NCBI GenBank assembly: GCA_964016885.1
Contig: OZ024740.1
Coordinates: forward strand, 293,818,001 to 293,882,000
Length of the DNA: 64,000 bases
DNA from: Eledone cirrhosa
Taxonomy: Eukaryota
Direction of reading: 5' to 3'
Shown here: piece after piece, positions 15,516-58,296 of the stretch
Layout of the letters: every line of letters starts with the position of its first letter
How positions within the stretch are numbered: the stretch's first letter is position 1
The notes under the pieces: generated by a model
What the model saw: the letters and a program-made list of their open reading frames with translations, nothing else
Told to the model about the DNA's origin: nothing
The model's database searches: none
Translations under genes and position numbers: made by a program

Positions 15516-15516
15516 A

Positions 15517-15549
<33 letters not shown>

Positions 15550-15552
15550 CAT

Positions 15553-21180: not shown

Positions 21181-21371
21181 CTGTTATAACATCCAGTGTA
21201 AAATTTGAAATAAATGGGCAAATATCAAATTCACCCTTACCAACCATTTTGTCTAGTTTGTTACACAATATATTTGAATGTTCTTCCATTATAATTTGGA
21301 AACTATTTAAGATATTATAATGAAATGATGGTGTCAACATCTTTCTTGATTTCAACCATCTTGCTCCTGTA
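21181..21371 (-). CDS. CYP4V-like coding exon 4 (C-helix WxxxR)
   Basis: TTTCAG|T...ACAG|GTAAGT; 191 bp; TGARWLKSRKMLTPSFHYNILNSFQIIMEEHSNILCNKLDKMVGKGEFDICPFISNFTLDVIT; phase 2 to 1. Confidence 0.95.
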
Positions 21372-22118
21372 CTGAAAATAGTAAACAATAAATAGTATTA
21401 TATTTATCTTATGTTTTAAATAACAACTTTTATAAACTGAATTAGCTACAATTGGAAAACTCAGCCTAAACATTTTTGCTGTTTTTTTTTAAATATCTAG
21501 TCAGCCTAGGTTGTACAGACATATGATGTGAAGTATTCCAGCCCTCACCATACCATATGTTACCTTTTTTGAGTTTTTAGGATTGTGTGCTTTGGATCAC
21601 ATTATAAAATATTTAAGGCAATAAAGTTTGGTTTGTGAGAGATTTGGCTACAATTTCGAGCAAGGAGATGAAAGACAAGATATGACAAACTCATTGAGAT
21701 GGACCCAAAATAATTATCTAAATGTTGTAAACTATGTTGGTTCACTCAGATCAGTTCCCATCACTAGTCAATAAGGAAGCCTATACTCAGTTGTTCATCC
21801 TATAATGAATACCAGCAATACATATATATATATTTCTAGGGATTGTAACATTCAGTTCACCAGAGTGAGCACTTGATGCGTAGTTTCCAGTAAGAGTAGA
21901 GTTGTAGTACTGAGCAGAGTGTAATAATAATAAAAAATCGTCCTCTCTCTCTCTCTATATATATATATATGAAAAGATTCAGGACCCTGATGACTGAGCT
22001 CCGGCCAATTTGACAGCTAGTTCTGAACTAAAGCCATATTACCCACTCTACTACCCCAAGTATCAAGTACTCTGGTGGGTTATGGTCCGCCTGATTTTTT
22101 ACCACACCTTATCTGATA

Positions 22119-24382: not shown

Positions 24383-24574
24383 CCATTTTACGTCCGTTCT
24401 TCCACGTTAGCATGAGTTAGATGGGTTGCACTGTTGTAAGCAGTATCCAGTCGCTGACGTTGTCTTGCTGATACAGGAACTGATTCTGGCTTGATTTCTA
24501 CAGTTGGATGCCCTTCCTAACACCAACCTCATTTACAGTGAGTGCTGGGTGCTTTTTTTCCATGGCGCCTACAC

Positions 24575-26340
24575 CTTACTTTCATGACCTGGTCCATCAG
24601 CTTTATATCTCTATAGTTTCCTCTATCTAGTGCATCACTTTTACCCTTGTAGCAGTTGACAATGATGCTACTGCACCAATCTTTTGGTATGACACCTTCT
24701 AGTATTACCTGGTTAACAATACGTGTGGTTATGGTGTGACCTACCGACCCAGATGCCTTCAGCATCTCGGCAAATATACCCGATGGACCAGTTGCCTTCC
24801 CCGTCTTTATATCTTTGATTGTCTTACTTACTACACTGCTGCTGACTTGTACTGCTGGCCCCTCTATAGGATCCGCTTGGGGTAGGGTATCTTCTTCCCA
24901 TGCATTCTCCTCATTTAGTAATCTATCATAATGGCTCTTCCATGCATCTTTCTTCTCAACACTTGTGAGGGCAAGCTCACCTTTATCATTCCTGATACAC
25001 TTCTCTCCATGACATCACAATTCTCTCTGACACACTGCCTCGCAATCTTGAACACCTCCTATTTCTGGTCCTCACATTGCAAAACATGCTTGAATTTTCT
25101 ATCCTCTGCTTCCCTCCTAGTTATGTATACTTGTCGCCTAGCTTCCCTCCTGGTCTCTCTGTAATGTACCCTGCTTCCCCTGTTCTTCCATTCTTTCCAT
25201 GCCTGTCTATTAGCCTTAACTGCCTCATCTACCTTATTGTTCCACCACTAGGTCACTCTCCTCGTCCCTGTGGTCTTACTCCAGTCACAGATCTCGTCCA
25301 TCGCCTTTAGTAAGTTATGTTTTAGGAACTCCCAGTGCTCTTCTACATTGAATGTCTCTATCTGTTTTTCTTTACTGTCATAGGCGTTGAGTAAAATATC
25401 TTTAAATCTGTTAGTGGCTGAGGGGTCTTTCAGCTTCCAGATCTTTCTTCTCCAGATTGCCTTCTGTTTCCAAGTTCATCTAGTTTTGACAGTGAGGTCG
25501 TTGACAACTAAGTTATGTTGGGAGGTACATTCTTCACCAGGGAAGGCTTTCGTGTTTACAACCGTCCTTCTATCACGCCCTCTGATGAGGATAAATTCTA
25601 TCTGACTAGAATGCTCCCCTGATCTATTGGTGATCAGATGGTTGTCGGGTTTTTTGAAGTTTGTGTTACATATCAACATGTCATTGGAGTTGCAGAATTC
25701 CAGAAGCCTGAAGCCTTCTTCATTCTTTTTGCCAAACCCATGGCCTCCATAGAAGCTGTCACCGTGTTTACCAACATGTCCGTTAAAATCTCCTGCAGTA
25801 ATTAGGGAGTCATTGTCGTTTGTTAGGGCAGTAGTGTGCACTAGGGACTCGTAAAACCTATCCTTGAGTTTGTCTGACAACCCTGATTGGGATGCGTAAG
25901 CTGATATTATTGTGGAAATTGTTTTATTCAGGACTAGTCTGAGTTTAATGATTCTTGCGTTCACCCTGTTCACTGAGATTACCTTATCAACCCATTTGTC
26001 AGCTAATAGTATACATACACCACCCATCCCGTTGTCATTTCCCACCCAGAAAAATTTCTAGCACTGACTTTTGCCTACAAGGACTCAAGTGGACTCTCCT
26101 CTCCATCTAATCTCTTGCACACAGCATACATCAATTTCCTTTCGCTCTAGCATCTCTACAATTTCTCCTGCTCTTCCTTTCATTGTGCTTACATTGATGG
26201 TTCCAACTCGGAGTTTTGGACATTTGCCATCACTCGTAGGATGGGGTGAATTTTTGCGGGGGGTGGGTGTGTATGCTTCCAGTCTCTGGATTAAAGCTTC
26301 GCATGGGTGCTTGGTAACTCGTGGATTCATATTCATTTAT
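24575..26340 (-). mobile_element. RTE LINE 5' part (AP endonuclease and start of RT), disrupted
   Basis: LRVGTINVSTMKGR..VQEIRW, ISAYASQ, AGDFNGHVG, SQHNLVV and KDWCSSIIVNCYKGK; same family as 36466-39224. Confidence 0.9.
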
Positions 26341-32049: not shown

Positions 32050-34350
<2,301 letters not shown>

Positions 34351-34525: not shown

Positions 34526-36220
34526 TTAGCCATCGGGCTTTAACACTGGCTTAAAGTGTTTGAATGTTGCAAAGTTCTTGTGCATGCAGTTCGGGCAGTG
34601 TTCAGAGAGTTTGTTCAGTAGCGGGCCCTTGGCGAATAAAATTTCGTAGCTCTCTGAAATACAAAGGTCGCAGCCCTTGTGTCCTCCGTTGTAAGAGCGC
34701 GCTTTCTGGAGTATTTTCCAATTAAGCGTGAAGGGGGTGGAGTTCCTTTTGAGGTCCCAAACGTAGGAGGCGAGTGTTGTTTGATTTGATTTATCCGGTC
34801 TTCTGAAGGAGTGGGTATGGGCATACCAACGGGTCTTAAAGTTGTTGGAGGTCATGCCGATGTAAGTTTTTTTGCAATCCTCGGTGCCTGAGATGACATC
34901 GCATTTGTATACGATGTCATTTGTGAGGCATTTGTTTTCTAGTGGGCATGCTTCCTTATTAAGGCAATTACATAGAGCCCCAGTCCGGGGATTGGTTTCG
35001 GAGGTGGTTGGCTTATTTAGTTTAGAGTTGTGGTTGGCTATATTCCTAGCTAGGTTAGGTGTGGTGGAGTAAGACAGTCTTATAGTGTTCTTATTAAAGA
35101 TGGTGAAGTACCTATGTTGTATGGGGAAGTGTAATTTCAGTAAAGTGAAGAAAATCCTAGCTATCGGAGTAGATACCTCTCTATTGAAGGGAGGGTTGTA
35201 CCAGCTAATCTGCCTATGTCTATTCCTCCTCTGCAATTTTGCGGTGGTTTCTAGGTAAGTTATCTTATCTTTAAATCCGCTACGGGCTAGGGCGTCATTG
35301 TAGTAGGAGGCAGATGCATTAAAAATATCTTTGTTGGCGGAGAGGCCAGATATTCTAATAGAGACGCTTTTTACTAGGTTATCAGTGATGTTTTGGGGGT
35401 GGTTAGAATTAACATTAATATATTTAAGGGACTCGTTAGGTTTGTGGTACGGGTAATAGAGGGAAGTATCTAGGTCGAGAGTGACATCTAAGAAGTTGGC
35501 CCTAGTCAAATTAGAATCTATAGTTATACTAAATCCTAGATTAGAGAAGAAAGAGCTTAAGTTTTTCCGAAACCCATCGGTGGTTCTGGGGCTAACCTTA
35601 TGCAGGGCGAAGAGGCCGTCGTCTCGGTATAAACCTCCAGTTAGGCCGGTAAAGAGGTTCTTCAGGTTATGTAGGATGTACAGGCCCACAAGATCGCTAA
35701 TTTCAGCCGAGTCGCTCGCCCCCATGCTAACGTCAAATGGGGTCTGAGATTTCTTGTTGATCCAGTAAGATCCATCGTGGTATAGAAAGGTCTTACGAGC
35801 GTGGAGGATAATAACTTGCTCAGCATCGGTAATGGTGGTAAAATTCCTGGCAAAGTTAATTGCGTCCTTCAGGAGGGGCTCCGAGATAGAGGCATAGTAG
35901 TTTTCTATGTCGAGTTGCAGGAAGCGAGTGTGGTGTTTATCGGGTAATTCTTGGAACCATGATATTGCCTCAGATGTTCTACTCCAGAGTGGAAGTGGTG
36001 AGGCTGCCCGCAATGATGGTAGAACTCTATCCAGGATCTTCTTACTGATAGAGCCGATGTCAGAACGAGTGGGGTTGATAAGTCTGACTGATGGTTTGTT
36101 GAGGAAATTTCCCTTATGGTCCTTCAGGGTAAAGTGCGGGGTCTTTACCCTTAAAGGTTCGGTTCGGTCATGTAATTTAAGGGACTTGGCGATTTCTTTT
36201 CCGGCCGCGTTTGTCTCAGT
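34526..36220 (-). CDS. Penelope-like reverse transcriptase plus GIY-YIG endonuclease (N-terminally truncated)
   Basis: RT motifs [29 protein letters not shown] and GLYRDDGL; Cys linker CNC..CPLENKC; GIY-YIG motifs IVYKC..TYIGMT..R..H and CDLCISE; no stop over about 565 codons. Confidence 0.92.
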
Positions 36221-36465
36221 CAGTGTGTGTATACATATATGTATACACACACACATATATATATATATGGGCCTTCCAATTTCATTTTACATTATATACA
36301 TATCTGTGTATATTTTAGTTATTTAAACATTATTTTTAAGCGAACGTGACCCAACAGGTCACGGGTGGTGTAGTATTCAATAAAATTAAAAGTAGTGTAT
36401 GATAAGATATATAAACTGAGGCATGACATTTGACTTCAATGCACTATTTTCATTTTATACATAAA

Positions 36466-39191
36466 GAATGCATGAAGAATGCACCTCCCAACATAGACTG
36501 ATAATTAGCGACCTCATAGTCAGGACGAAACGTACCCGACAGCAGAAGAGGACTATCCTCAGGAGAAAAATATGGAAGCTAAAGGACCCTACAGCCAGAA
36601 ATAAATTTCAAAGCATATTACTTGATGCTTTCGACAGTAAGGAAGAGCATTTAGAGTCGTACAATATAGAGGAACAGTGGGAATTCCTGAAAGCAAACCT
36701 GCTGATGGCGGCAGACGAAGTCTGTGGCTGGAGCAGGCCTATAGGCAGGAGGAGAGTAACATGGTGGTGGAACAGTAAGGTGGAGGAGTCGATTAAGGCC
36801 AAAAAGCAGGCTTGGAAAGTATGGCGGGATGGGGGAAGAAGAGAAGACTATCAAGTGGCCAGGAGGGAAGCTAGGAGACAAGTGTACTTCGCAAGAAGGG
36901 AAGCAGAGGAAAGAAAGTTCAAGCATGTTCTACAACGCGAGGACCAAAAACGTGAGGTGTTCAGGATTGCTAGGCAATGTGTCAAGGAAAACCGTGATAT
37001 TATCGGGGAGAAGTGTGTACTAAATGATGATGGCGTACTTGCCATCACTGACGCTGATAAGAAGGTAGCTTGGAAGTGTCCCTACGAAAGGCTACTAAAT
37101 GAGGAGAATAAATGGGAGAAGGATAGTCTCCCCCATATCGATCCAATAGAGGGACCAGCAGTGTTAGTTGAAGGTAGTATAATAAGTAAGGCTATCAAAG
37201 ATATGAAGATGGGTAAGGCGGCTGGGCCTTCGGAAATAGTTGCTGAGATGCTGAAAGCCTCTGGAACGGTGGGACACACCATGGTCACCCAGATAGTAAA
37301 CCAAGTCATACAGAATGGGGTTGTTCCGAAGGACTGGCGTAGCAGCATCATCATTAACTGTTACAAGGGTAAAGGAGACGCCCTAGATAGGAGTAACTAT
37401 AGAGGCATTAAATTAATCGACCAGGTCATGAAGGTCACGGAAAAAGTAATAGCGCAACTAATCAGAGAGAGAATTGATCTAGATGAAATACAGTTCGGAT
37501 TTGTGTCAGGCAAAAGTACCACAGAAGCTCTTTTCATTGTACGACAACTACAGGAGAAGTACCTAGCTAAAAGTAAACCCCTATACTTAGCCTTTGTCGA
37601 CTTGGAGAAAGCGTTCGACAGAGTCCCCCGTTCCATTATCTGGTGGGCTCTTAGAAAACTAGGTGTTGATGAATGGCTTGTGAGAGCTATAGAAGCCATG
37701 TATAAAGAAACAGTCAGCAAGGTTAGAATTAACAACGAATATAGTGAAGAGTTTAGCGTAAAAGTTGGTGTTCATCAGGGCTCTGTTCTTAGCCCCCTAC
37801 TATTTATTATTGCCCTACAGGCTATAACAGTGGAGTTCAAGACCAGCTACCCATGGGAACTCCTATACGCAGATGATCTAACGCTCATAGCTGAATCAAT
37901 GGCCGAGCTAGAGAAGAAATTCCAAACATGGAAGCACGGCCTAGAATCAAAAGGCCTTAAAATTAACCTGGCTAAGACTAAAGTTCTAGTTTGTAGGAAA
38001 GAAAATAAGGCGTCGGTCCCTTCCGGGAAATGGCCATGCTCAGTGTGTAGGAAAGGCGTAGGTAGAAACTCCATTTTATGTCCCAAATGCAAAGTATGGG
38101 TGCATAAAAGATGCAGTGGGATCACAGGTAAGCTAACTAAGAACACAGATTTTACATGTGGCCGGTGCTCTGGTGCAATAAGTAGCAGCAAGTGCCCACA
38201 GAATACTAGCTCTTTCAATTGCGCAGAGGGTTCTATAGAAATAGTGAACAGCTTCCGTTACCTGGGTGACAAAATCAGCAGTGGAGGAGGGTGCTCTGAA
38301 AGTACAGTAGCTAGAGTCAGAACTGGATGGAAAAAGTTCAGAGAGCTTATACCACTATTAGCCGCTAAAGGGTTCTCCCTAAAAATGAAAGGCAGGCTGT
38401 ATGATGCCTGCATACGAACAGCGATGTTGCATGGCAGTGAGACCTGGGCTTTGTGTGCAGAGGATATACGCAGACTAGAGAGGAACGAAGCTTGCATGCT
38501 CCGCTGGATGTGTAATAGTAATATACGCGAACGGCAAAGCATAAACGAACTAAGGGAAAAATTAGAAATAAGAGGGATCAGATGTTGTTTAGTCGAGAGA
38601 AGGCTACGTTGGTATGGTTACGTGATGCGCATGAAAGACGACAGCTGTATAAAAAAGTGCAGGGCAATAAAGATAGACGGTAGCCACGGAGTAGACAAAC
38701 GCAGAAAAACCTGGGACAACCTGATAAATTCCGACCTCACACACTTACACCTCTCCAAGACAATGTCACTGGACCGAGATCTTTGGCGGTACTCAGTAAT
38801 AGAGAAGACCTGCCTTACCTGAAATACAAAGTAAAACCTACTACAGCAGTAGGCATCTCTAACAAAACACACCCCCGTCCCACCACCCCCACCCCATCCA
38901 CACCGCCCCTTTCAATGTAAAGTTATGTTGGTGCCACAACATCCAGGCCGAAACAAATGAGTTCGTGTAGGTGGCATGACAAAAAAAACACACAGTCCAT
39001 GCTGTAATGTGGCCATGTAGGCAACACGGTAAAAACCTCCCAGTCCCACACTGTAAATGTGGTTGGTGTTAGGAAGGGCATCCAGCTGTAGAAAACCCGC
39101 CAGACAGTCCTATGCGAGCAAGACAACCACTCTTGCCTCAAGTGGGAAAACTCTCGTCCAAACCCATGCAAGCATGGAACATGGACGTTAA

Positions 39192-39224
<33 letters not shown>
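36466..39224 (+). mobile_element. RTE-clade LINE, 5'-truncated, young
   Basis: 784-aa open frame, 3'UTR and (GAT)n tail; candidate TSD ACATAAA at 36459-36465 and 39225-39231. Confidence 0.92.
36468..38822 (+). CDS. RTE ORF2 reverse transcriptase with a Cys-rich PHD-like insert
   Basis: NYRGIKL, QFGF, FVDLEKAFDRVP, GVHQGSVLSPLLF and LLYADDL; CSVC..CPKC..WVHKRC..CGRC; endonuclease domain mostly missing. Confidence 0.93.
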   Translation: MHEECTSQHRLIISDLIVRTKRTRQQKRTILRRKIWKLKDPTARNKFQSILLDAFDSKEEHLESYNIEEQWEFLKANLLMAADEVCGWSRPIGRRRVTWWWNSKVEESIKAKKQAWKVWRDGGRREDYQVARREARRQVYFARREAEERKFKHVLQREDQKREVFRIARQCVKENRDIIGEKCVLNDDGVLAITDADKKVAWKCPYERLLNEENKWEKDSLPHIDPIEGPAVLVEGSIISKAIKDMKMGKAAGPSEIVAEMLKASGTVGHTMVTQIVNQVIQNGVVPKDWRSSIIINCYKGKGDALDRSNYRGIKLIDQVMKVTEKVIAQLIRERIDLDEIQFGFVSGKSTTEALFIVRQLQEKYLAKSKPLYLAFVDLEKAFDRVPRSIIWWALRKLGVDEWLVRAIEAMYKETVSKVRINNEYSEEFSVKVGVHQGSVLSPLLFIIALQAITVEFKTSYPWELLYADDLTLIAESMAELEKKFQTWKHGLESKGLKINLAKTKVLVCRKENKASVPSGKWPCSVCRKGVGRNSILCPKCKVWVHKRCSGITGKLTKNTDFTCGRCSGAISSSKCPQNTSSFNCAEGSIEIVNSFRYLGDKISSGGGCSESTVARVRTGWKKFRELIPLLAAKGFSLKMKGRLYDACIRTAMLHGSETWALCAEDIRRLERNEACMLRWMCNSNIRERQSINELREKLEIRGIRCCLVERRLRWYGYVMRMKDDSCIKKCRAIKIDGSHGVDKRRKTWDNLINSDLTHLHLSKTMSLDRDLWRYSVIEKTCLT

Positions 39225-41025: not shown

Positions 41026-42049
41026 AGCTAAATACAATGAATATGTGGTAATAGAAAAAAATATTAAAGCAATAGTGATTTACTACTATTATATCGATTT
41101 TTTCGACAAGTTTGAGAGATTACTTAGGACATGCTTCAATACTATTAGACCTACTTAGTGAAGTATTGACTTCACTATAATACTCAATGTAGTGATGGGG
41201 GAATAACAAAGTCAATGGACAAGAATGAGCACTTATTTTATTTTTACAAGTGAATAGTATCTAAATAATTTATTATTTAAATGCTATTTTTTATTTCAAC
41301 ATGAAGTGCACATATTATATATTAACTTAGTAATTCTTCCATCACTATTTCAGAAAGTACTATGAACTTGATACTTTATTGAAGAGCAATAACACAACTA
41401 ATTCTTGTCTACAGATTTGATCTGTACACAGCTACATTATCTGATGTATAATTATTTATTTAAGTTGGTTGGCTGTTATTTGAGAGGAAATTGGCTGATA
41501 TTTCTAGCAGGTCTAGTGACTATTCAGAGGCAGACTTGTATTGAGCATTGACTATATTACTAGATGGAATTTAAGAGTAATTTATACTGCTATCAGTTTT
41601 TGTTAAAAACAATTGATAAATTATATCTCCACATAATCCTAAACTTGTAAATCTATTATTGAGAGAGATAGTAGCAGTAATAGGTAAAATGTAAAACACA
41701 TTGATTCAGTGCTGTGGTGGTAGCAGAGAAGCAGTTAATAGCTACATACTAAAGAAATAGGGCAATGGATACTCTACTTAATCATAAACTTGTAAATCTA
41801 TTTTTGTTATTTGTGCAGAATAACATAAACAACCAACTTTACCCAATAGCAACAATAATAGCTATTCATATTTACTTGTATATATTCATCTTTAAAGATA
41901 AAAAGGAATGTTTGTTGTTGCTTGTGCAGTTGTGGCAAGTATTCTTTCTTGTAACTTAATACATTAGTCACATGTTGATGGTCACATCTGACAACATGAA
42001 AAATCAACTTTACCCAATAGCAACAATATTAGTTATACAAGATACTTAC

Positions 42050-42162
42050 TTGTATATATTTATCTTTAAAGACAAAAATGACTGGCTGGATACCAACCCA
42101 GATGGACAGTATACCATATTCTCGAAATTCATCTGCAATTCTCATTAGATTTTTATAAAAGT
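42050..42162 (-). CDS. CYP4V-like coding exon 2
   Basis: TTGCAG|AC...CAA|GTAAGT; 113 bp; (D)FYKNLMRIADEFREYGILSIWVGIQPVIFVFKDKYIQ, resembling CYP4 LWVGPVP region; phase 1 to 0. Not in the ORF track. Confidence 0.9.
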
Positions 42163-42849
42163 CTGCAATAGAATTGTTTAAAAGTGAGAAAACTATTCAG
42201 TCAGAAAAGTGAGAAAGGTATTCAGTTGATGAATATAAATTCAATACTTTCTTAAAATACTTATATTCAAAAGAAATATTCTGTTTAAGTTTTCAGAGGG
42301 TTGACTTTTGTGGGGAGGGAGATTATCTACAGTGGGAAAGACATTTTGAGTAAAGAGAGCCTGGTGTATAGAGTAAGCCTTGGTGGCAGTGATTCAGAGA
42401 AACAGGGGTCATTGTAATAGTTATAAAGTTGTTCGATAGAGGAGTCAGCATATCTGTAAGCTATAAATTGTTGTGTTTTGGTGTGTAAGTAATAGAATAT
42501 ATTTCTTTGGGATGTTTGTTTATGTAACAGTAACACTGTTCCAGATCTGTGAACAGTATTCTGTTATAAGAGTTATTCAAGCTTTGTGGACAATAAGCAA
42601 CTCACCAAATCACAAATGATATGAATTTACTTGTTCCATAAAGTATACAATTTTTACTGAAAGCTATAAGAGTAAGTGGAAATACATAAAAAAGGCTAAA
42701 TAATATTGAAGAGGGAACAGAAAAAAGAACAAGATATAGAAAAGATAAATTGATAGTTATTTGAGAGAAAGATTTATCAATATTTATATAAATAACAATA
42801 TTTATATATATTTATATATTTATATATTTATATAGCTCCTAAGAAAACT

Positions 42850-45345: not shown

Positions 45346-45699
45346 TTGGATATGATCCTAGATGTGTGTATTACCAGCTTGTGTGTTTTTTCTTTTGTGT
45401 GTTTTTTCCATTCCCCTTTCTTTTCTTTTTTTTTCTCTTTATTTATGATATTATGATAACGGTTAAGTTGACATTACAAATTGTTTATAATTCATGTTCA
45501 AAATGTTGCCAACAGATTGTAAAATTACAGCCAATTACAACATTTTATCATGCTGATATAAACTTTTATGCAGCCTAGAAAATGTTGTGCAATGATTACA
45601 TGAAATTACATACCCCCTTGACAATTCAGTATAATATTTTTGACCTGCTAAAATATTTAAGAAAGAAATAGTGTTATTGCACAAATTACATACAACAAA

Positions 45700-48560
45700 A
45701 AAGTGTTTTAAAGATCATTTCATCTGCTAAAAATGAACTAGCCTTGCTAGCCTCGTGGCAATCTTCTATATTTTGCTCTATTTGCCTACATTTCCCTTCA
45801 TCAAATTCTTGGCTTTTATTTCCTATTCTAAGATCTCCAGCCATATTTTTCTTGATCTTCCACTTTCTTTGCATTCTTCTAAATTCCTTTTAATCATTTT
45901 TCTCATCCAGCCATTTTCATCTTTACTCCAAACGTGATCCAACCATCTCAATCCATTTTTCTTAAAAACATTCACCACAGGCTCTATTCCCATCATTCTC
46001 TACTATTCATTGTTTATCTTCTTCTCTCTCAGTGATACTTTACATCCACCAAACCATTCTTATTTCCATTCCTTCCACTCTCCTTTGCTGCTCCACATTC
46101 ATCACCCAAGTCTTGCTCCTATAAGTCATAGAACTTCTTGTCATGCAGCATACACTTTTCCCTTCAGTTTCAGAGACATTCCTCTCTTCAATATCATGCT
46201 ACTCAATTCCTAAAACTTCTTCCATATACATCTCAATCGCGATGTTGTTGCCAAGTCTGATCCTCCTTTTCATTCAACATGTTTCTTAGGTAACAAACTG
46301 TTTTCATATTTTCTACCTTCACACCATTCCCAATAACAAGCAGGATATCTGTAGCGCCCTCCATACACAGTTTACACTTAAATGTAGCTGTTATATTATT
46401 TAATAATAGCTTCACCACATTTGTTTTATGTATTCACCCAATGCCTATAATACATTTAATTAAGTTCATTCTAATTCCTTTCCTGCACACCACATACTGT
46501 CACATTCTTGTATTTTCTATCTCACTAAATGTTTTAGCACTTACCATCACCTTTGTTTGCAATTGTCACCTTCAAACCATTTGCCTCCAAACATTCCTTC
46601 CGCCTATTCATCTTCTCTCTCAGTCCATCCATACTCTCTGCCATGAACACTAGATCGTCTGCATAGAGTAACTCTCATGGTAAGCCCTCCTTTACAATGT
46701 TGGTTTATACATCTATTACAACTACAAATAACAGTGGATGTAATACTGACCCTTCAACCTTCACTTCAAAGGTGTCACAGTTCCCTTCCTTCTTCCTTAT
46801 GACTGTATATACTATCTTATATATTGTCATCACTACTCTAAGCAATCATTCTTCCATTCCTAACAATCTCAATGCCCATGTCACTACTTCACATGAACTC
46901 CATTGAAAGCTTTGTCCAGATCAACAAGCCACCAAAACAAATTATTCCCCTTGTTTCTGTAATTGCCTCAGAATAAAAGTTGCATCAGTTTTTCCTTTTC
47001 CCTGGCACAAATCTAATCTGCATTTCATCAGTCTTCACTTCTTTCTTTAACCTCTTCTCCACCACTTTTTCTACTTCATTTCAGTTTCAAACAACTTAAT
47101 TGCTCTATATGAGCCACAGTTGTGTGGATTGCCTTTCCTCTTGAACAAAGGGATGAAAATACTCAACTCCCAATCTATTGCAATACAGTCTTCTTTCACC
47201 ACCAACGTACAGTCGCCCTATTTGCCACAACTACATGCTGTTTTTAGCATATCTCCTACAATAGTTGGTCCTGCTGTTTCCCTACACAATCTTTCTGGAT
47301 GCTTCTAAGACTTCTTTCAACTCTGTTGGTTTGAGAACTGAATTTCTTTCTATGTTACCATTCCATCCATCCCCCACATTCTACAACCTCTCCATATATC
47401 TCTTCTACCTTATTTCCATTTGGTTCTATAACAATTTGTCCTACTTCATCCTTCAAGCAGCTCAACCCGGTCACATCATATCTCCATCTTGTAAATTTCT
47501 CTGTAAACTTGCTCTGAATAATTTCATTCTCTAAATATTTGTCTGCTTCCACTTCTTTCATTGCAGACGTTTTGGCTGCCTTGTAATTCTGATGAACTTA
47601 ACTACCTCTTCTGATGCCATATTTTCTGCTCTCTGCTATTCTCTGAATCTTACTCTTTTTCCATAAGTCCTCTTTCTAACTTAATCATCCTTCCTCCATG
47701 TTTCCAAATGTCTTTGTAGTTCTCTTGTCCAACCAAACATATCACCAACAGCTCCTAAAAAATTATATTTTGGAGACTTCTAAACGTTTTCAAGTTCATT
47801 CGTGTCATTTGCTGACAAAACACATTTTCTCTCTTTGAGCCTCTCTTACTGTTGTCTCTTTTAACCTCCACACCTTCAGCCTTGGTTGATATTTCTTCTA
47901 CTCAGCTCTTTTCCCACTTTTCACCTGAAATGTTATAGATAACTAGATGGTGCTGTGTAGCAACCTCCTTTCCTGGAATGACCTTTGTAACATGAAGGTA
48001 CCTTCTATCTTGCTCATATGCTACCAGATAGTTGACAGTTGATAACACTTTATGTCTATGTAGCAAGTTTATTGTCTTTTTTCTGGAATTGGGTGTTAGA
48101 TTGACATATTAAGTCTATCAGCAAATTATAAAATCCTTTCTTTGTTGCACACCAAAATTTGTCTTTCTGTTCAACATCCTGACAGTCTTGAGGGGCATAT
48201 CCTGATATGATATTCACTAAGAACTTTCCAATCACCAGTTTCACCATCATCAACTGTTCACTCAATATCATCATACACCATACTGTCTAGAAAACTACAG
48301 AAATTAAGACACCAACACCATGTACACCTTCTGGACACTCTTGCTATACAAATTTCTACTTTTGTCTTGGTTTTTTCCTCAACATTCACAAACCACTCCA
48401 CTTCCATTATGTCTTCTTCACACAACATATATCCACTCTTCTTCTATTCTGTGCCTCCATCATTCCCCCCAATCTTCCTGCCATCACATCCCTATTTTCT
48501 ATGTCACAAAATTCATATATTGGTCTCCACAATTGACACCAAACATCTGACCATCATAAA
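45700..48560 (-). mobile_element. Old, highly degenerate RTE LINE
   Basis: Remnants NIISGYAPQ (endonuclease), VATQHHLV, PGKGKTDATFIL and YADDLV on the minus strand. Confidence 0.8.
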
Positions 48561-49239
48561 TGACTTGAACTCAGTGTCTATCTAGTTTAGAATAGATACA
48601 TCTATCTCTGGTATTGTAAGAGGCAACTAAAAGAGTTGGTGACAGGGAGGGCATCTGGTCATAAAACACTGTCTCAAAAAGGATCTCATGATGAGTATGA
48701 TAATTACATAAATTACATCTAAGTTTATAATTTATTCATCTATTTCTTCCATTGGTATAATGTTTTTAATGAAATATATAGAAATATCAACTACATTTTT
48801 CTCAAATTATACACTAATATCCAGAAAGATGAAAACATAAATTGTATAATGTCATCATAATCAAAATCATTTTTACATCCATTCTTCCATGTTTGCATGG
48901 TCTGGCCTGATTTTTTACAGCCCAGAGGGGTTCAGTATTTTGAGATTAAACATAACACCTTTGCCCAGGTCTTCCTTGCTCTTATTCTATTGTAGATCAT
49001 TTGCTACTTCTTCATACAATGGTCATCATCCATGTACATCATGTGTCTATACCTGTGTAATCTTCTCTCATTGTTCACTTCATCTGATTCAACTTATGCC
49101 CAGTTGTTCTGTCAGCTGATCCATGTGTTCCTGTTCCTGCACATTAACATTAATCATCCATTGGAGCATGTGGAACTAATTTCAGTCCAGACTTCACATA
49201 TCATCTGCATTCACTGTATGTCTCACTTCTATAAAATAT

Positions 49240-52200
49240 CATACTTTACATACAGACATCATAGACTGTATATCTCACTACTACATTACCATACAACATC
49301 ACACTTCACATACAGACATCATAGACTGTATATCTCACTACTACACTACCATACAACATCACACTTCACATACAGACATCATAGACTGTATATCTCACTA
49401 CTACACTACCATACAACATCACACTTCACATACAGACATCATAGACTGTATATCTCACTACTACACTACCATACAACATCACACTTCACATACAGACATC
49501 ATAGACTGTATATCTCACTACTACATTACCATACAACATCACACTTCACATACAGACATCATAGACTGCATATCTCACTACTACACTACCATACAACATC
49601 ACACTTCACATACAGACATCATAGACTGTATATCTCACTACTATACTACCATACAACATCACACTTCACATACAGACATCATAGAGACTATATCTCACTA
49701 CCATACAACATCACACTTCACATACAGACATCATAGTCTGTATATCTCACTACCATACATCATCACACTTCACATACAGACATCATAGACTGCATATCTC
49801 ACTACTACACTACCATACAACATCACACTTCACATACAGACATCATAGACTGTATATCTCACTACTACACTACCATAGAATATCACACTTCACATACAGA
49901 CATCATAGACTGTATATCTCACTACCATACAACATCACACTTCACATACAGACATCATAAACTCTATATATCATTACCATACATCACACTTCACATACAG
50001 ACACCATAGTCTGTATGTCTCACTACTATACACCATCACACTTCACATACAGACATCATAGACTGTATATCTCACTACTACACTACCATACAACATCACA
50101 CTTCACATACAGACATCATAGACTTATAGTGAGGATTACTGGTTGTATGAATGTAACAAAACGAGACAATGTTTGTGTATATAATATTTAATTAACGGTA
50201 GATAGAATACTTGACATGTCAAAGATAGATGTTAGAATGAAACAAAGTTAGTAGTTACCGTTTTGATTGCCAGGCAAACGCGGCTGGCAGAGGGCGCCTG
50301 GCTAAGGCCAGGCGCCTGTTGGCCAAATTAATGGCAGAGCCAAATGAGAAGACTCTTGACCTGGTGCCGAAAAGGCAAAGAGAGAAAGGAAGCTTAAAGT
50401 TGTTAGTTTTATAGGGCTCTGACCGGAAGTTGCAGAAAGGGTTCCACTTCCCGTCTAGATCCTAATCAAAACAAGGGAGACAACCGCTACATAACCTCCC
50501 GCCAGAATTTTAGTGGATAAAAATCGAAATGAAAACATGTAGCAAGTTGGCGAGAATGTTGTAACAGGCATGAAAATTACGACAAAAGAATGTTTGGAAA
50601 AATCAATGATAGATATCAAGGTAGCCAACCGCTCTTGGCCAGAGAACGACTGGACATCCATCTATCCATCACCCAAAGATACAATGTAATAAAGTAAAAG
50701 TAATAGAAGAGCTCAAAGTTCAAAATATAGTTCACAGGTGTGCAATCACATGACAGCAGGAAAGAAAGTGTGTTCCAGAGAATGAATGCAGGTGGTTTCT
50801 GTTCTGTGGTATATCGTGAAATTTCCAACCTCCGAATGGATTTTCTCACAGGAAGAGTGCTGCAAAAATAAATTCTCTGGCTTTGGTGAAGCTGTATTGA
50901 TGTATTGCTGTTGCTGTTATATTGCTGTTGCTGCTGCTGTTGTCTCGCTGAGTGAGCGTATTCGGTGTTTAAATTCACAGTAAAAAAATTTTTTTTTTTA
51001 GAAAAAAATGAGTTGCGCAAAGTGCTAGAAATAGCAGCCGAAGTTGATGGTCGATGTTGAGAATGCGTTGACCTGGAAGGGTCAAGAGGCCAGCGACCAG
51101 AGAAATAAGCATTCTTAATAAATGCGCGGTTATCAACGGTAAATTTACATTGTAAATTTATAAACCGGCAAATAGAAGAATATAGCTTAAGGCTGAAGAA
51201 TCCTTGGGGGAGAAATGCTATCTCTGGCGTGCGGCTGTCTGTGCGTAGAGACATCTCAGTGAATCGAGAATTTATGCTGCCTACACGTGCCAATACAAGG
51301 TTGAAAAAAAATATTTCTAACGCGCGAGAAAATGATAGTGCAATTTTGAAAGTGACAATGATGAAAAAGAAAGGCTTCAATCAGCATAATTATAGGTGTG
51401 AACCTTGGAAAAAAACAAAAAACTTGAACGATGAAGAAAACGAAGAACAAAAGGCAATGGTTCATCGAAAATAAATGTTCCTGTTGAAATGTTTTTTAAA
51501 GAATATCAAATTTCTTTTTTTTTTTTTGTGTTTTGAAAGAGTTCGTTGTAAGAAACGAGAAACATATATATATATCGTGAAATGTTTTTTTTTTTTTTTG
51601 AAAGTGTTCGTTGTAAGAAACGAGAAACATATATATATATATTGGTGAAATGCGACAGTTAATTGATGCGTGAGAGAAAAAGTATGTCTGTGCGAATTCC
51701 ACATGTGCGTGTGTGCGTGTCCTTGAGTATTTTCATAGTTTGTCGCTAAATTTGCTGTGTATTCGTAATGTTACTCACAAAACCAGATGTGCTATTTTTT
51801 TATTTTTTTGGGGGGTGACCACTTATAGCGATGAACGGCTGCGTGTTCGTATCACGTCAGGGTTACCAATATAAGGGGGTTTACTGGGTGTATGAATGTA
51901 ACAAAACGAGACAATGTTTGTGTATATAATATTTAATTAACGGTAGATAGAATACTTGACATGTCAAAGATAGATGTTAGAATGAAACAAAGTTAGTAGT
52001 TACCGTTTTGATTGCCAGGCAAACGCGGCTGGCAGAGGGCGCCCGGCTAAGGCCAAGCGCCTGTTGGCCAAATTAATGGCAGAGCCAAATGAGAGGCTCT
52101 TCGACCTGGTGCCGAAAAGGCAAAGAGAGGAAGGAAGCTTAAAGTTGTTAGTTTTATAGGGCTCTGACCGGAAGTCGCAGAAAGGGTTCCACCTCCCGTC

Positions 52201-55200
52201 TAGATCCCAATCAAAACAAGGGAGACAACCGCTACAGACTGTATATCTCACTACCATACAACATCACACTTCACATACAGACATCATAGACTGTATATCT
52301 CACTACTACATTACCATACAACATCATACTTCACATACAGACATCATAGACTGTATATCTCACTACTACACTACCATACAACATCATACTTCACATACAG
52401 ACATCATAGACTGTATATCTCACTACCATACAACATCACACTTCACATACAGACATCATAGACTGTATATCTCATTACTACACTACCATACAACATCATA
52501 CTTCACATACAGACATCATAGACTGTATATCTCACAACCATACAACATCACACTTCACATACAGACATCATAGACTGTATATCTCACCACTACACTACCA
52601 TACAACATCACACTTCACATACAGACATCATAGACTGTATATCTCACTACCATACAACATCACACTTCACATACAGACATCATAGACTGTATATCTCACT
52701 ACCATACAACATCACACTTCACATACAGACATCATAGACTGTATATCTCACTACTACATTACCATACAACATCACACTTCACATACAGACATCATAGACT
52801 GTATATCTCAATACTACATTACCATACAACATCAACTTCACATACAGACATCATAGACTGTATATCTCACTACTACACTACCATACAACATCATACTTCA
52901 CATACAGACATCATAGACTGTATATCTCACCACTACACTACCATACAACATCACACTTCACATACAGACATCATAGACTGTATATCTCACTACCATACAA
53001 CATCACACTTCACATACAGACATCATAGACTGTATATCTCACTACTACATTACCATACAACATCATACTTCACATACAGACATCATAGACTGTATATCTC
53101 ACTACCATACAACATCACACTTCACATACAGACATCATAGACTGTATATCTCATTACTACACTACCATACAACATCATACTTCACATACAGACATCATAG
53201 ACTGTATATCTCACTACCATACAACATCACACTTCACATACAGACATCATAGACTGTATATCTCACTACTACACTACCATACAACATCATACTTCACATA
53301 CAGACATCATAGACTGTATATCTCACCACTACACTACCATACAACATCACACTTCACATACAGACATCATAGACTCTATATCTCACTACCATACAACATC
53401 ACACTTCACATACAGACATCATAGACTGTATATCTCACTACTACATTACCATACAACATCATACTTCACATACAGACATCATAGACTGTATATCTCACTA
53501 CTACACTACCATACAACATCATACTTCACATACAGACATCATAGACTGTATATCTCACTACCATACAACATCACATTTCACATACAGACATCATAGACTG
53601 TATATCTCACTACTACACTACCATACAATATCATACTTCACATACAGACATCATAGACTGTATATCTCACTACTACACTACCATACAACATCACACTTCA
53701 CATACAGACATCATAGACTGTATATCTCACTACTACACTACCATACAACATCACACTTCACATACAGACATCATAGACTGTATATCTCACTACTACATTA
53801 CCATACAACATCACACTTCACATACAGACATCATAGTCTGTATATCTCACTACTACACTACCATACAACATCACACTTCACATACAGACATCATAGACTT
53901 TATATCTCACTACTACATTACCATACAACATCACACTTCACATACAGACATCATAGACTGTATATCTCACTACTACATTACCATACAACATCACACTTCA
54001 CATACAGACATCATAGACTGTATATCTCACTACTGCACTACCATACAACATCACACTTCACATACAGACATCATAGACTGTATATCTCACTACTACATTA
54101 CCATACAACATCACACTTCACATACAGACATCATAGCCTGTATATCTCACTACTACATTACCATACAACATCATACTTCACATACAGACATCATAGACTG
54201 TATATCTCACTACTACACTACCATACAACATCATACTTCGCATACAGACATCATAGACTGTATATCTCACTACCATACAACATCACACTTCACATACAGA
54301 CATCATAGACTGTATATCTCATTACTACACTACCATACAACATCATACTTCACATACAGACATCATAGACTGTATATCTCCCTACCATACAACATCACAC
54401 TTCACATACAGACATCATAGACTGTATATCTCACCACTACACTACCATACAACATCACACTTCACATACAGACATCATAGACTGTATATCTCACTACCAT
54501 ACAACATCACACTTCACATACAGACATCATAGACTGTATATCTCACTACTACATTACCATACAACATCATACTTCACATACAGACATCATAGACTGTATA
54601 TCTCACTACTACACTACCATACAACATCATACTTCACATACAGACATCATAGACTGTATATCTCACTACCATACAACATCACACTTCACATACAGACATC
54701 ATAGACTGTATATCTCACTACTACACTACCATACAACATCACACTTCACATACAGACATCATAGACTGTATATCTCACTACTACACTACCATACAACATC
54801 ACACTTCACATACAGACATCATAGACTGTATATCTCACTACTACATTACCATACAACATCACACTTCACATACAGACATCATAGTCTGTATATCTCACTA
54901 CTACACTACCATACAACATCACACTTCACATACAGACATCATAGACTTTATATCTCACTACTACATTACCATACAACATCACACTTCACATACAGACATC
55001 ATAGACTGTATATCTCACTACTACATTACCATACAACATCACACTTCACATACAGACATCATAGACTGTATATCTCACTACTGCACTACCATACAACATC
55101 ACACTTCACATACATACATCATAGACTGTATATCTCACTACTACACTACCATACAACATCACACTTCACATACAGACATCATAGACTGTATATCTCACTA

Positions 55201-55682
55201 CCATACAACATCACACTTCACATACAGACATCATAGACTGTATATCTCACTACCATACAACATCACACTTCACATACAGACATCATAGACTGTATATCTC
55301 ACTACTACACTACCATACAACATCACACTTCACATACAGACATCATAGACTGTATATCTCACTACTACATTACCATACAATATCACAGTTCACATACAGA
55401 CATCATAGACTGTATATCTCACTACTACACTACCATACAACATCACACTTCACATACTGACATCATAAACTGTATATCTCACTACCATACAACATCACAC
55501 TTCACATACAGACATCATAGACTGTATATCTCACTACTACATTACCATACAACATCACACTTCACATTCAGACATCATAGACTGTATATCTCACTACTAC
55601 ACTACCATACAACATCACACTTCACATACTGACATCATAAACTCTATGTCTTACTACCATACAACATCACACTTCACATACA
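49240..55682. repeat. Tandem satellite of 60-bp and 52-bp monomers, interrupted at 50125-52236
   Basis: Unit CATACAGACATCATAGACTGTATATCTCACTA[CTACACTA]CCATACAACATCACACTTCA; about 4.3 kb of repeat, roughly 75 monomers. Confidence 0.97.
50125..52236 (-). mobile_element. Short non-autonomous LTR retrotransposon (Gypsy-like)
   Basis: Direct repeats 50125-50491 and 51824-52236; minus-strand termini TGTAGCG...CGCTATA; 4-bp TSD GACT at 50121-50124 and 52237-52240; PBS-like TGGTCACCCC at 51821-51812; PPT-like GGCGGGAGG beside the left LTR; 1.33 kb interior with no intact gag/pol. Confidence 0.88.
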
Positions 55683-55944
55683 GGTATCATTTGCCAAAAG
55701 AAATCATTTGTTGTATAATAAAGATTGACAAAGAAATACATAGTAACTCATTGATCATGAAATGTGTAACATGTAGGAAACTAAAGCAAAAGCTTTGTGG
55801 GAAAATATGATAATGTAGTTCCATATTCTGTACAAACACATGTGGGTAACATCAAATAACATGGTTTGCCTTTTTCAATAGCATCTGTTGTATGAAGCAA
55901 ATGTGTAACAAAGTGTTTTCTAATATTTGTGAGATACGTTTTGA

Positions 55945-56163
55945 GGCTGAGACAAATTTGCTGAGATACATTCATCAGTGATACATTCATGAGAGGCTGT
56001 GACAAATTTGCTGAGATACATTCATCAGTGATACATTCATCAGAGGCTGTGACAAATTTGCTGATACATTCATCAGTGATACATTCATCAGAGGCTGTGA
56101 CAAATTAGCTGAGATACATTCATCAGTGATACATTCATCAGAGGCTGTGACAAATTAGCTGAC
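55945..56163. repeat. 50-bp minisatellite, about 4 copies
   Basis: GACAAATTTGCTGAGATACATTCATCAGTGATACATTCATCAGAGGCTGT repeated. Confidence 0.9.
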
Positions 56164-57082
56164 ATTACATATTAATGGGTTTGTCACAGTCTCTGTGCAA
56201 CTAAATGTATCAGGTTTGTATCAGACTAAAGTGTTTACATACACTTCTGACAATGCAGTGTAAACTATAAAAAACACAACAGTGTTTATCAAAAACTGAA
56301 AACTGCTCATGATAACTGATTAGCATTTTCAAGATAATGATTATATTGATGAAATAAAAATATTATCTATATCTTCATCATCATCATCATCACCGTTTTA
56401 CATCCATTCTTCCATGCTAGCATGGGTTAGACGGGTTGTCCTATTGTGAGCAGTGCCCAGTCGGCTGATCTTGTCTTCTTCATACGGGAAATGATTCTGG
56501 TTTGATTTCTACAGCTGGATGCCCTTCCTAACACCAACCTCATTTACAGTGAGTGCTGGGTGCTTTTTATCCGTGACACCTACACGACCACTTTACAGTG
56601 TTGGCTGGGTGCTTTTTTGCTGTGGCACCTCCACCACCACTTTGCAAGCTTCGGCTTGTACCCGTGGGCACAATTAATAATTATAGAAAAGACTACATTA
56701 TCCAGAATGATATCATTCATTAACACAATGATAATGGGAGGTATGACTGAAAACATTTTCCAGTTTATGTTTAGACTACAAATTGAAAGTATTCAGTAAA
56801 GGAAAATATTAATAAATGGAACTATATATGATAATGAAAGAATTTTAAAAATTCAGTAATCATAATCTACACTTTGAAAATTGTATGTAGAAATTGAATT
56901 ATGGAGAAAATTACAGAGAAACAAATTTAGGTGCAGGCGGACTCAACTAAAAGATGGTATGATAATGTCTGGAATGATTTTGAACATAGGTCTGTTCAAT
57001 TAGTGCTGACTTAGAGCTTAACTGGAGGATAGAGTGAAGTTTACATATTTACCTCCATGGACATATTCAGTAAATTAATATC

Positions 57083-58133: not shown

Positions 58134-58296
58134 CTTTGTTTGCTCCAAGTAGTTTAGGTAAATCTCCAATTAAAGGCAACCAACTTTTCATGTATGGTAA
58201 GTGCCTAAAATCTGTCAATGATTTCGAATATTTGAGTAGTATATAAAAAGAAGAGCAGAAAATTGTAAGTAATATAAAAATATCAGTGAGCAACAT
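58134..58296 (-). CDS. Cytochrome P450 family 4 (CYP4V-like), first coding exon (membrane anchor plus Pro/Gly hinge)
   Basis: Translates MLLTDIFILLTIFCSSFYILLKYSKSLTDFRHLPYMKSWLPLIGDLPKLLGANK: hydrophobic anchor then LPLIG motif. Ends at AAAG|GTAATT (phase 1), in frame with the 42162 exon. An alternative in-frame ATG lies at 58350 and a possible acceptor at 58425, so the start is uncertain. Confidence 0.8.

What the first reader, a model, noticed from the sequence alone, without database searches (positions are those of the whole stretch)
48865..55725. Satellite array amplified in situ from about 17 codons of RTE ORF2
Seen: on the minus strand the 52-bp monomer reads GTC TAT GAT GTC TGT ATG TGA AGT GTG ATG TTG TAT GGT AGT GAG ATA = VYDVCM*SVMLYGSEI. 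This matches LYDACIRTAMLHGSET in the intact RTE ORF of this same window (about 38398-38445). The unique DNA on both sides of the array continues the RTE alignment in the correct order: LL..K.F.L upstream, then ML.WM, ERRL..Y, RKTW and the RTE tail downstream. Inference: one short piece of a dead LINE was amplified about 75-fold where it lay. The 52-mer is ancestral and the 60-mer arose by an 8-bp slippage insertion (CTACACTA). TE-derived satellites are known in general, but here progenitor flanks and array are preserved together in a P450 intron.
Basis: partly seen in the sequence, partly recalled or inferred. Interest (0 to 1): 0.8.

Follow-up and report, generated by a model that had tools for sequence, protein, structure and literature searches.

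The report
LINE hot spot that breeds minisatellites
The tandem array is a short piece of a dead retrotransposon's coding sequence repeated about 76 times between its own flanks, and the same short tract has given arrays at dozens of other places in this genome, many sharing one derived junction that likely spread from locus to locus by off-site recombination.

Summary
Largely confirmed, but neither single-locus nor rare. The 52/60-bp array (76 units) sits inside a truncated LINE remnant. Monomer and downstream flank align in order to the window's RT-encoding ORF (63%, E 1e-20); the upstream flank is a real but short piece (~30 bp).

The larger result: the same ~100-bp ORF tract seeded arrays of 23, 47, 52/60, 54 and 98 bp elsewhere. 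A doubled motif gives 1,743 matches (18 loci on C1+C2), against 2 and 0 loci for neighbouring control motifs. 13 of 70 sampled LINE copies carry an array there. Of 30 ~47-bp arrays, 25 share a derived junction although their host copies are not a clade, which suggests interlocus transfer. Copying of whole array-bearing remnants also occurs, so transfer is not proven. The window's array has its own junction: an independent birth.

TE-derived minisatellites are well known. The scan earlier noted a LINE-tail minisatellite in another genome.

The parts
55691..55725 (-). Short 5' piece of the LINE remnant upstream of the array (LL..K.F.L region); about 9 bp shorter here than in the three paralogs
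   Evidence: 0/300 shuffles, 1/300 genomic controls against 53 single-copy flanks; paralog starts
52237..55690 (-). Array, 5' block: about 60 units of 52/60 bp; includes a 432-bp identical block repeated 1,048 bp away
50125..52236 (-). 2,112-bp LTR-bounded element inserted in a 52-bp unit. LTRs 51870-52236 and 50125-50491 differ at 12 of 366 sites; 4-bp target duplication at 52237-52240 and 50121-50124; no protein family found in its one long ORF; dispersed family; absent from the three paralogous arrays
49224..50124 (-). Array, 3' block: about 16 units; the last unit runs on into LINE sequence
48950..49223 (-). Downstream LINE ORF remnant (ML.WM, ERRL, RKTW), frameshifted and with stops
   Evidence: (tblastn linked E 9e-8; blastn E 1e-20)
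48855..48905 (-). LINE 3' tail with degenerate (GAT)n
   Evidence: aligns to 39164-39213
58134..58296 (-). Predicted coding exon 1 of the CYP4-like host gene; also present beside all three paralogous arrays (91-97% amino-acid identity)
42050..42162 (-). Predicted exon 2 of the CYP4-like gene; the array lies in the predicted 16-kb first intron, same strand as the LINE remnant
   Evidence: family label from exon 21176-21397
36465..38822 (+). Reference LINE ORF (RVT_1, PHD-like finger); a distant relative used for comparison, not the progenitor; hot tract about 38395-38515

Best explanation
The array is a 52-bp piece of a 5'-truncated LINE ORF repeated 76 times between its own LINE flanks; it likely began as a local slippage or unequal-exchange duplication at a short microhomology and likely grew by unequal exchange. 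Order of events: (1, shown) a truncated LINE copy lies in the predicted first intron of a CYP4-like gene. (2, inferred) After decay, a duplication joined the sequence just after GSET back to the sequence just before YDAC, at a 3-4-bp match. (3, shown) An 8-bp insertion made the 60-mer before the gene was duplicated, since all four paralogs hold both lengths. (4, shown) The paralogs now hold about 76, 52, 11 and at least 17 units. (5, shown) An LTR element inserted into this copy only. The array is most likely neutral, a variable-number repeat with no function of its own (inferred). It is one independent birth at a genome-wide hot spot: the same ORF tract gave units of 23, 40/47, 54 and 98 bp elsewhere (shown). 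The commonest family there, the 47-mer, likely spread its junction between LINE copies by non-allelic recombination (inferred, about 0.4; see the section on the most novel reading).
For: Colinearity. Paralogs with shared flanks 2.5-3.1% diverged, LTR pair 3.3%, within-array divergence 2.7-8%, block duplications. Unit-region contigs from a public run reach depths of 161-509 against 31-38 for the two flank contigs beside them, so the repeat is in reads (that run may be the source sample). Hot spot: doubled motif 1,743 matches vs 0 reversed control, 18 loci on C1+C2. Upstream control 12 matches at 5 loci (2 on C1+C2) although it has 23,600 single matches. Downstream control 136 matches, none on C1-C8, first 100 rows all one array. 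Edge-anchored sample: 13 of 70 copies carry an array at the tract; 7 of the first 52 consecutive rows. Independent units with LINE continuation: 23-mer on C10, 54-mer of ~12 kb on C1, 98-mers, two-copy seeds L036 and L080.
Against: The upstream LINE flank is ~30 bp and no convincing target-site duplication was found (best 7 bp), so the remnant's 5' end is not fixed. The pre-amplification allele of this locus was not seen: all four paralogs carry the array. Density of 4-bp direct repeats does not single out the tract (18-22 per 100 bp vs 13-24 elsewhere); only TG content is higher (16 vs 6-7 upstream, 8-14 downstream), so why this tract is hot stays unexplained. No genome-wide single count was run for the hot motif; in a small sample it matched 9 of 16 copies vs 3 and 4 of 16 for the controls, so part of the excess is motif conservation. 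Two controls only.
Confidence: 0.85

Rival explanations
1. The 47-bp family (not the window's array) descends from one or a few array-bearing LINE copies that were themselves copied around the genome, by retrotransposition of a non-autonomous master with the duplication or by segmental duplication, and then expanded locally. The hot-spot count would then be inflated by one founder event.
For: L091, L121 and L124 share the whole remnant at 91-97% with similarity ending at the LINE limits; L220 (C8) and L228 (C28) share array, LINE flanks and further downstream DNA at 90-96%. First unit ancestral and later units derived, as a master would give, in the two-copy loci L187, L218, L221. Most hosts are in subfamily B, whose tree is star-like, so a master without diagnostic sites cannot be excluded. 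The label is slightly clustered (10 of 500 shuffles as low).
Against: Hosts are not one clade (p-AU 0.004, 13 vs 78 rows; 10 label changes). No diagnostic downstream column among 976 tests (best p 0.008); host-host distance 0.195 vs host-single 0.203. The derived junction occurs with A-subfamily unit bodies in L122, L126, L206 and mixed in L188, and with both states of a B sub-lineage column. The junction varies less between loci than the unit body (10 of 315 vs 36 of 336). It cannot explain the 23, 52/60, 54 and 98-bp arrays.
Confidence: 0.4
2. The shared junction arose again and again in place, because its two derived bases strengthen a small hairpin and such units expand preferentially.
For: The derived junction folds at -3.4 kcal/mol vs -1.8 for the locally expected one. 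Single copies carry the G variant at 5 of 100 listed edges.
Against: Two-copy loci already have both changes (L187, found without selecting on the junction). Further variants inside arrays do not move toward a perfect palindrome. The energy difference is small.
Confidence: 0.1
3. The window's array came from elsewhere as a mobile satellite block and landed in a LINE remnant; its likeness to the ORF is incidental or ancient.
For: Upstream LINE flank is short; TG-rich sequence aligns easily.
Against: The last unit runs without a seam into 250 bp of LINE. Among the 40 candidates scored, the 52/60-mer array was found only at the four paralogous loci. The closest single units are LINE copies at about 90% over 41-47 bp.
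Confidence: 0.04
4. The array, or its four copies, is an assembly artefact.
For: No long reads were examined; copy numbers rest on the assembly.
Against: Paralog flanks differ by 2.5-3.1% with distinct indels; units carry locus-specific variants; the LTR insertion has a target duplication; unit-region contigs are several times deeper than flank contigs.
Confidence: 0.02

Closest known systems
TE-derived minisatellites in the human genome (Ahmed and Liang 2012, PMC3389668; parts 1-3 of 4 read, main text complete, supplements not seen)
   Same: Arrays expanded in situ inside a TE copy with the TE continuing on both sides; 7,276 cases, 601 from L1; a 52-bp x 17 AluJo example; 185 multilocus clusters.
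   Different: They found no hot spot in AluJ or AluY and only broad preferred regions in AluS; the LTR12 hot spots were put down to repeats already in the master. Here one coding tract of a LINE gives arrays in roughly one copy in eight of an edge-anchored sample.
Alu-, B1- and MaLR-derived minisatellites; microsatellites at a common site in L1 ORF2; Haber-Louis origin model (seen only as passages, table rows and reference titles in reviews PMC6947457 and PMC9659126; primary papers not read, Ames et al. 2008 not held)
   Same: Recurrent tandem repeats from one part of a retroelement, started at short flanking direct repeats; LINE ORF2-derived repeats are listed (PROsat, Pvc 20).
   Different: PMC9659126 states that there is no conclusive evidence that specific TE portions are used preferentially; this LINE family gives a counted case. 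I could not check whether Jurka and Gentles or Ames et al. describe junctions shared across host subfamilies.
[quoted passage not shown] 2020, PMC7403614; passages read)
   Same: One junction shared by clusters at many loci, read as a rare founding event followed by interlocus gene conversion or eccDNA reintegration at homologous landing sites. This is what the 47-bp family works like.
   Different: There two unrelated satellites are joined; here the landing sites are single dispersed LINE copies and the unit is the host's own sequence. They had eccDNA and synteny data; I have neither.
Earlier scan note e1-554160 (LINE-tail 150-bp minisatellite in another genome; AI note, not checked)
   Same: A LINE piece amplified at one spot.
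   Different: 3' tail rather than ORF; single locus; no hot spot reported in the lines shown.

Membership tests
TE-derived minisatellite amplified in situ | Head-to-tail units of 10-100 bp in an array of up to about 100 copies | tested here: met
   76 units of 52/60 bp
TE-derived minisatellite amplified in situ | Unit at least 70% similar to a TE segment | tested here: met
   about 90% over 41-47 bp to single LINE copies; 0 of 500 shuffles against the window ORF
TE-derived minisatellite amplified in situ | TE continues colinearly on both sides | tested here: met
   downstream about 340 bp to the tail; upstream only about 30 bp
Haber-Louis origin (5-10 bp flanking direct repeats) | Unit bounded by a 5-10 bp direct repeat in the progenitor | tested here: inconclusive
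   only a 3-4 bp match can be read for the 52-mer, and the upstream boundary is altered in this remnant; 4-mer repeat density is not raised at the tract
Satellite DNA in the classical sense (long heterochromatic arrays) | Very long arrays, high genomic copy number | tested here: not met
   four short arrays, about 155 units in all among the candidates scored
RTE-clade LINE (progenitor) | Reverse-transcriptase domain | tested here: met
   Pfam RVT_1 E 9e-31 on 36465-38819
RTE-clade LINE (progenitor) | RT phylogeny places it in the RTE clade; APE endonuclease upstream | not tested
Non-autonomous LTR element (insert) | Direct terminal repeats, target-site duplication, dispersed copies, no coding domain | tested here: met
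   LTRs 96.7% identical, 4-bp duplication; 40 of 40 scored hits at 95% or more, 1,586 candidates; no Pfam hit for the 254-aa ORF
Non-autonomous LTR element (insert) | Primer-binding site complementary to a host tRNA | tested here: inconclusive
   a TGG-starting stretch follows the 5' LTR by 1 base and a purine run precedes the 3' LTR; Rfam gave no tRNA match
Satellite spreading by interlocus conversion or eccDNA (Rsp-like type), for the 47-bp family | Same derived junction at many loci in unrelated hosts | tested here: met
   25 of 30 arrays; hosts not a clade, p-AU 0.004
Satellite spreading by interlocus conversion or eccDNA (Rsp-like type), for the 47-bp family | Landing site present without the array in relatives; repeat found on circles or in de novo events | not testable with these tools
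   no relatives held for G000

The most novel reading that the evidence does not exclude
A 47-bp minisatellite 'homes' among dead LINE copies: a junction born once is copied by ectopic break repair from an existing array into single LINE copies elsewhere, duplicating the host's own segment and seeding new arrays, mainly near chromosome ends, across different LINE subfamilies and at least 13 contigs. The LINE family acts as a genome-wide set of landing pads, and the window's 52/60-mer is a separate birth at the same tract.
Probability: 0.4. Interest if true: 0.65.

Novelty: new variant of a known kind. Interest (0 to 1): 0.42.

Why it matters
The locus alone is a tidy but ordinary TE-derived minisatellite. 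Its use is as a dated series: four paralogs with 11 to 76 units and an LTR insertion as an internal clock. The wider result bears on an open point, how minisatellites begin and whether parts of a TE are preferred. Here one LINE tract can be followed from single copy to two-copy seed to 12-kb array at many loci, with neighbouring tracts as built-in controls. If the shared junction moved by ectopic repair, dispersed LINE copies would be shown to exchange sequence between chromosomes and to pass on a repeat without any transposase or endonuclease of its own. That is testable by comparing orthologous loci in congeners.

Tried and rejected
The upstream-flank test is valid for the window and L015 only; the anchor failed for L013 and L014, so those two rows are void (their starts were read). 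The first flank tree picked the wrong LINE copy for L130, L133 and L139 and was replaced, which kept 91 of 115 rows (18 of 32 array rows); the rest lacked enough LINE flank. Regular-expression P450 motifs (recalled) found nothing; 5 of 6 exon ORFs had no Pfam hit. No target-site duplication for the LINE remnant. Microhomology density does not mark the hot tract. Concordance of unit body with the B sub-lineage column was not significant (p 0.18 and 0.5). An upstream column at p 0.0002 of 732 tests lies near the search motif and is probably ascertainment, but was not checked. No drive toward a perfect palindrome inside arrays. A 10-bp array on C10 (L017) may come from the same tract but has no clear ORF flank; not counted. 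No RNA holder listed for exon 1. Rfam found nothing credible in the LTR element. Literature: 'minisatellite+RTE+octopus' 0 papers; 'cephalopod+satellite DNA+RTE+tandem' 3 listings, none on this; searches listed no report of this family (listings only). The octopus and cephalopod search words were my guess from recall; no call names the organism. Two look-ups for Ames et al. 2008 failed. Sequence search of earlier findings was blank.
Full report
OBSERVATION. Tandem Repeats Finder gives two blocks, 52249-55690 and 49224-50128. Cut at a fixed anchor they are 76 units: 51 of 60 bp, 22 of 52 bp, one 59, one 49, and one 52-type unit split by an insertion. A natural 52-mer aligns to the window's LINE ORF at 38400-38442, and none of 500 shuffles scores as well against the whole ORF. 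The last unit and the DNA after it align without a seam to 38400-38658 (63%, E 1e-20; score 129 vs shuffle maximum 40), continue to RKTW and end in the LINE tail. Other family copies match this flank at 69-75%, so the window's ORF is a relative, not the source. The upstream flank was not picked up against the window's ORF. Against 53 single-copy family flanks it scores above 300 of 300 shuffles and 299 of 300 genomic 45-mers. It is about 30 bp long, so the LINE copy was 5'-truncated just before the amplified piece. Single copies and the first and last units lack the 8-bp insertion: the 52-mer is ancestral.

First, 50125-52236 is not array but a 2,112-bp element with two LTRs differing at 12 of 366 sites and a 4-bp target duplication inside a 52-bp unit. 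It belongs to a dispersed family (40 of 40 scored hits at 95% or more; 1,586 candidates). Second, the array is at four loci on C1, near 293.74, 293.87, 296.75 and 296.83 Mb. They share flanks at 2.5-3.1% divergence, hold about 52, 76, 11 and at least 17 units, and only the window's copy has the LTR element. All four hold both unit lengths, and three share a 49-bp variant or its 101-bp pair. Each has the same first exon beside it. The host gene has a Pfam p450 exon closest to CYP4B1 among solved structures, and exons 1 and 2 have GT/AG ends in phase around the array. So the P450-intron claim holds as a prediction from sequence.

HISTORY OF THIS LOCUS. LINE insertion and decay came first (about 25% from the nearest family copy). 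A local duplication followed (inferred), then the 8-bp insertion and growth to at least about ten units, then gene duplications and the LTR insertion at about the same time (3.3% between LTRs vs 2.5-3.1% between flanks; not separable). Later growth was by block duplication, such as a 432-bp identical stretch repeated 1,048 bp away. Contigs of a public run show unit-region depth of 161-509 against 31-38 on the adjacent flank, so the repeat is not an assembly invention, although that run may be the source sample.

THE TRACT IS A HOT SPOT. The monomer search also hit a 23-bp array on C10 that runs on into LINE sequence and a 54-bp array of about 12 kb on C1 with LINE sequence at both ends. A doubled 16-base motif from the GSETW codons gives 1,743 matches, 0 for the reversed control; the rows for C1 and C2 fall into 18 loci. 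Built the same way, a motif about 100 bp upstream gives 12 matches at 5 loci, 2 on C1+C2, out of 23,600 single matches. One about 50 bp downstream gives 136 matches, none on C1-C8, the first 100 all one array. Caveat: the hot motif is two to three times better conserved in a small sample (9 vs 3 and 4 of 16), and its own single count was not run. To avoid selecting on repeats I anchored on the unique 5' edge (103 matches, 100 listed) and examined 70. Thirteen carry an array at the tract. Fifty came from the first 52 consecutive rows (the other two were already held and are arrays: 7 of 52); 20 were hand-picked from later rows (8 of 20). For 98-bp units the anchor lies inside the unit, so they are over-sampled. 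By eye, only one other repeat of period 25 or more lay in LINE-aligned sequence in that sample. Of 20 loci fetched, plus L091, most show LINE flanks on one or both sides.

A SHARED JUNCTION. In 25 of 30 ~47-bp arrays at least half of the internal junctions carry a G where single copies have A; only 5 of 100 listed edges have that G. Neither end of the host supplies it. The other five arrays and the window's array have their own junctions. A search for a derived last unit followed by LINE sequence found 28 loci on 13 contigs; of 20 fetched, 18 are arrays of 2-46 units and 2 are single copies. For transfer between loci: the hosts' downstream flanks are not a clade (13 vs 78 rows, p-AU 0.004; bootstrap not settled, 60 of 88 branches open). 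No downstream column marks them (best p 0.008 of 976 tests), and they are as diverged as array-free copies (0.128 vs 0.128). The junction sits on A-subfamily unit bodies in three loci and on mixed bodies in a fourth, and hosts show both states of a B sub-lineage column. Among 21 loci not selected on it, the junction differs at 10 of 315 sites vs 36 of 336 in the body (p 0.0002; B hosts only 7 of 240 vs 21 of 256, p 0.011), while host ends show mixed CpG decay. On C1 and C2, 16 of 16 such arrays lie within 30 Mb of a contig end vs 2 of 30 array-free edges; exceptions exist, such as C28 at 46 of 136 Mb. Against transfer: whole array-bearing remnants have been copied (L091/L121/L124; L220 on C8 with L228 on C28), most hosts are in one star-like subfamily, and two-copy loci look as a duplicated master would. 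I put ectopic transfer and a mobilised master at about 0.4 each, and both may act. Repeated origin through hairpin gain (-3.4 vs -1.8 kcal/mol) gets about 0.1.

KNOWN WORK. In-situ TE-derived minisatellites are common: 7,276 in human, 601 from L1, with weak or no positional hot spots outside LTR12 (PMC3389668). Reviews list Alu, B1, MaLR and L1-ORF2 cases and the Haber-Louis model (PMC6947457, passages), and one says preferred TE portions are not established (PMC9659126, passages). Spread of a shared junction by interlocus conversion or circles is described for Rsp-like in Drosophila (PMC7403614, passages). My ten searches listed no report of this family; Jurka and Gentles 2006 and Ames et al. 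2008 could not be read and may hold close parallels in Alu. No supplements were seen.

VERDICT. What lifts it is the counted hot spot and the possibility that one junction spreads among LINE copies. Novelty: new variant of a known kind. Interest 0.42; 0.65 if transfer is shown.

Noticed in passing
window 50125-52236 and G000-wide: Young, abundant LTR-bounded family with no coding domain found in this copy (40 of 40 scored hits at 95% or more, 1,586 candidates); a TGG-starting stretch follows the 5' LTR.
   Followed up: partly
G000:C1 293.73-293.89 Mb and 296.73-296.83 Mb (L013-L015, L082, L084, L085, L087): Cluster of recently duplicated CYP4-like genes; two extra exon-2 copies (L082, L085) carry the same in-frame stop.
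   Followed up: partly
window 55943-56170; L013 6261-6540, L014 5165-5312, L015 3820-4355: A second minisatellite (50 bp) in the same intron also varies between paralogs: 4.6, 5.6, 3.0 and 10.7 units.
   Followed up: no
G000:C1:102895306-102907677 (L077, L078): About 12 kb array of a 54-bp unit from the same LINE tract, with LINE sequence at both ends; the longest seen.
   Followed up: partly
L135, L136, L173 (C2) and L210 (C26): 98-bp units covering the same tract at several loci, two of them next to 47-bp arrays; whether they share one junction was not tested.
   Followed up: no
G000:C9:53146537 onward; G000:C4:47582555-47582922: Arrays from the two control tracts: a ~41-bp unit with a variable (GA)n run over more than 5 kb, and a 44-bp unit in about nine copies.
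   Followed up: no
L220 (C8:33.63 Mb) and L228 (C28:46.15 Mb): Composite segment (LINE piece with 47-bp array plus other repeat DNA) shared between contigs at 90-96%.
   Followed up: partly
window 13729-15624 (-), 34526-36286 (-), 24529-26336 (-), 45440-48500 (-): Other retroelement remains in the P450 introns: a 631-aa open RT ORF 99% identical to a copy on C10 (L016), a 586-aa ORF with a weak GIY-YIG hit (Penelope-like by recall), and two further broken LINE copies.
   Followed up: no
window 41753-42196: Pieces of the exon-2 region appear repeated in tandem just downstream of the predicted exon 2.
   Followed up: no
window 32119-34293: A 2.2-kb degenerate (AT)n/(AC)n field.
   Followed up: no
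G000:C1 first 4.2 Mb: The upstream LINE motif is about three times denser here (100 matches in 4.2 Mb) than the genome mean (23,600 in 2,996 Mb), whereas array-free copies with the edge motif are rare near contig ends; unexplained.
   Followed up: no
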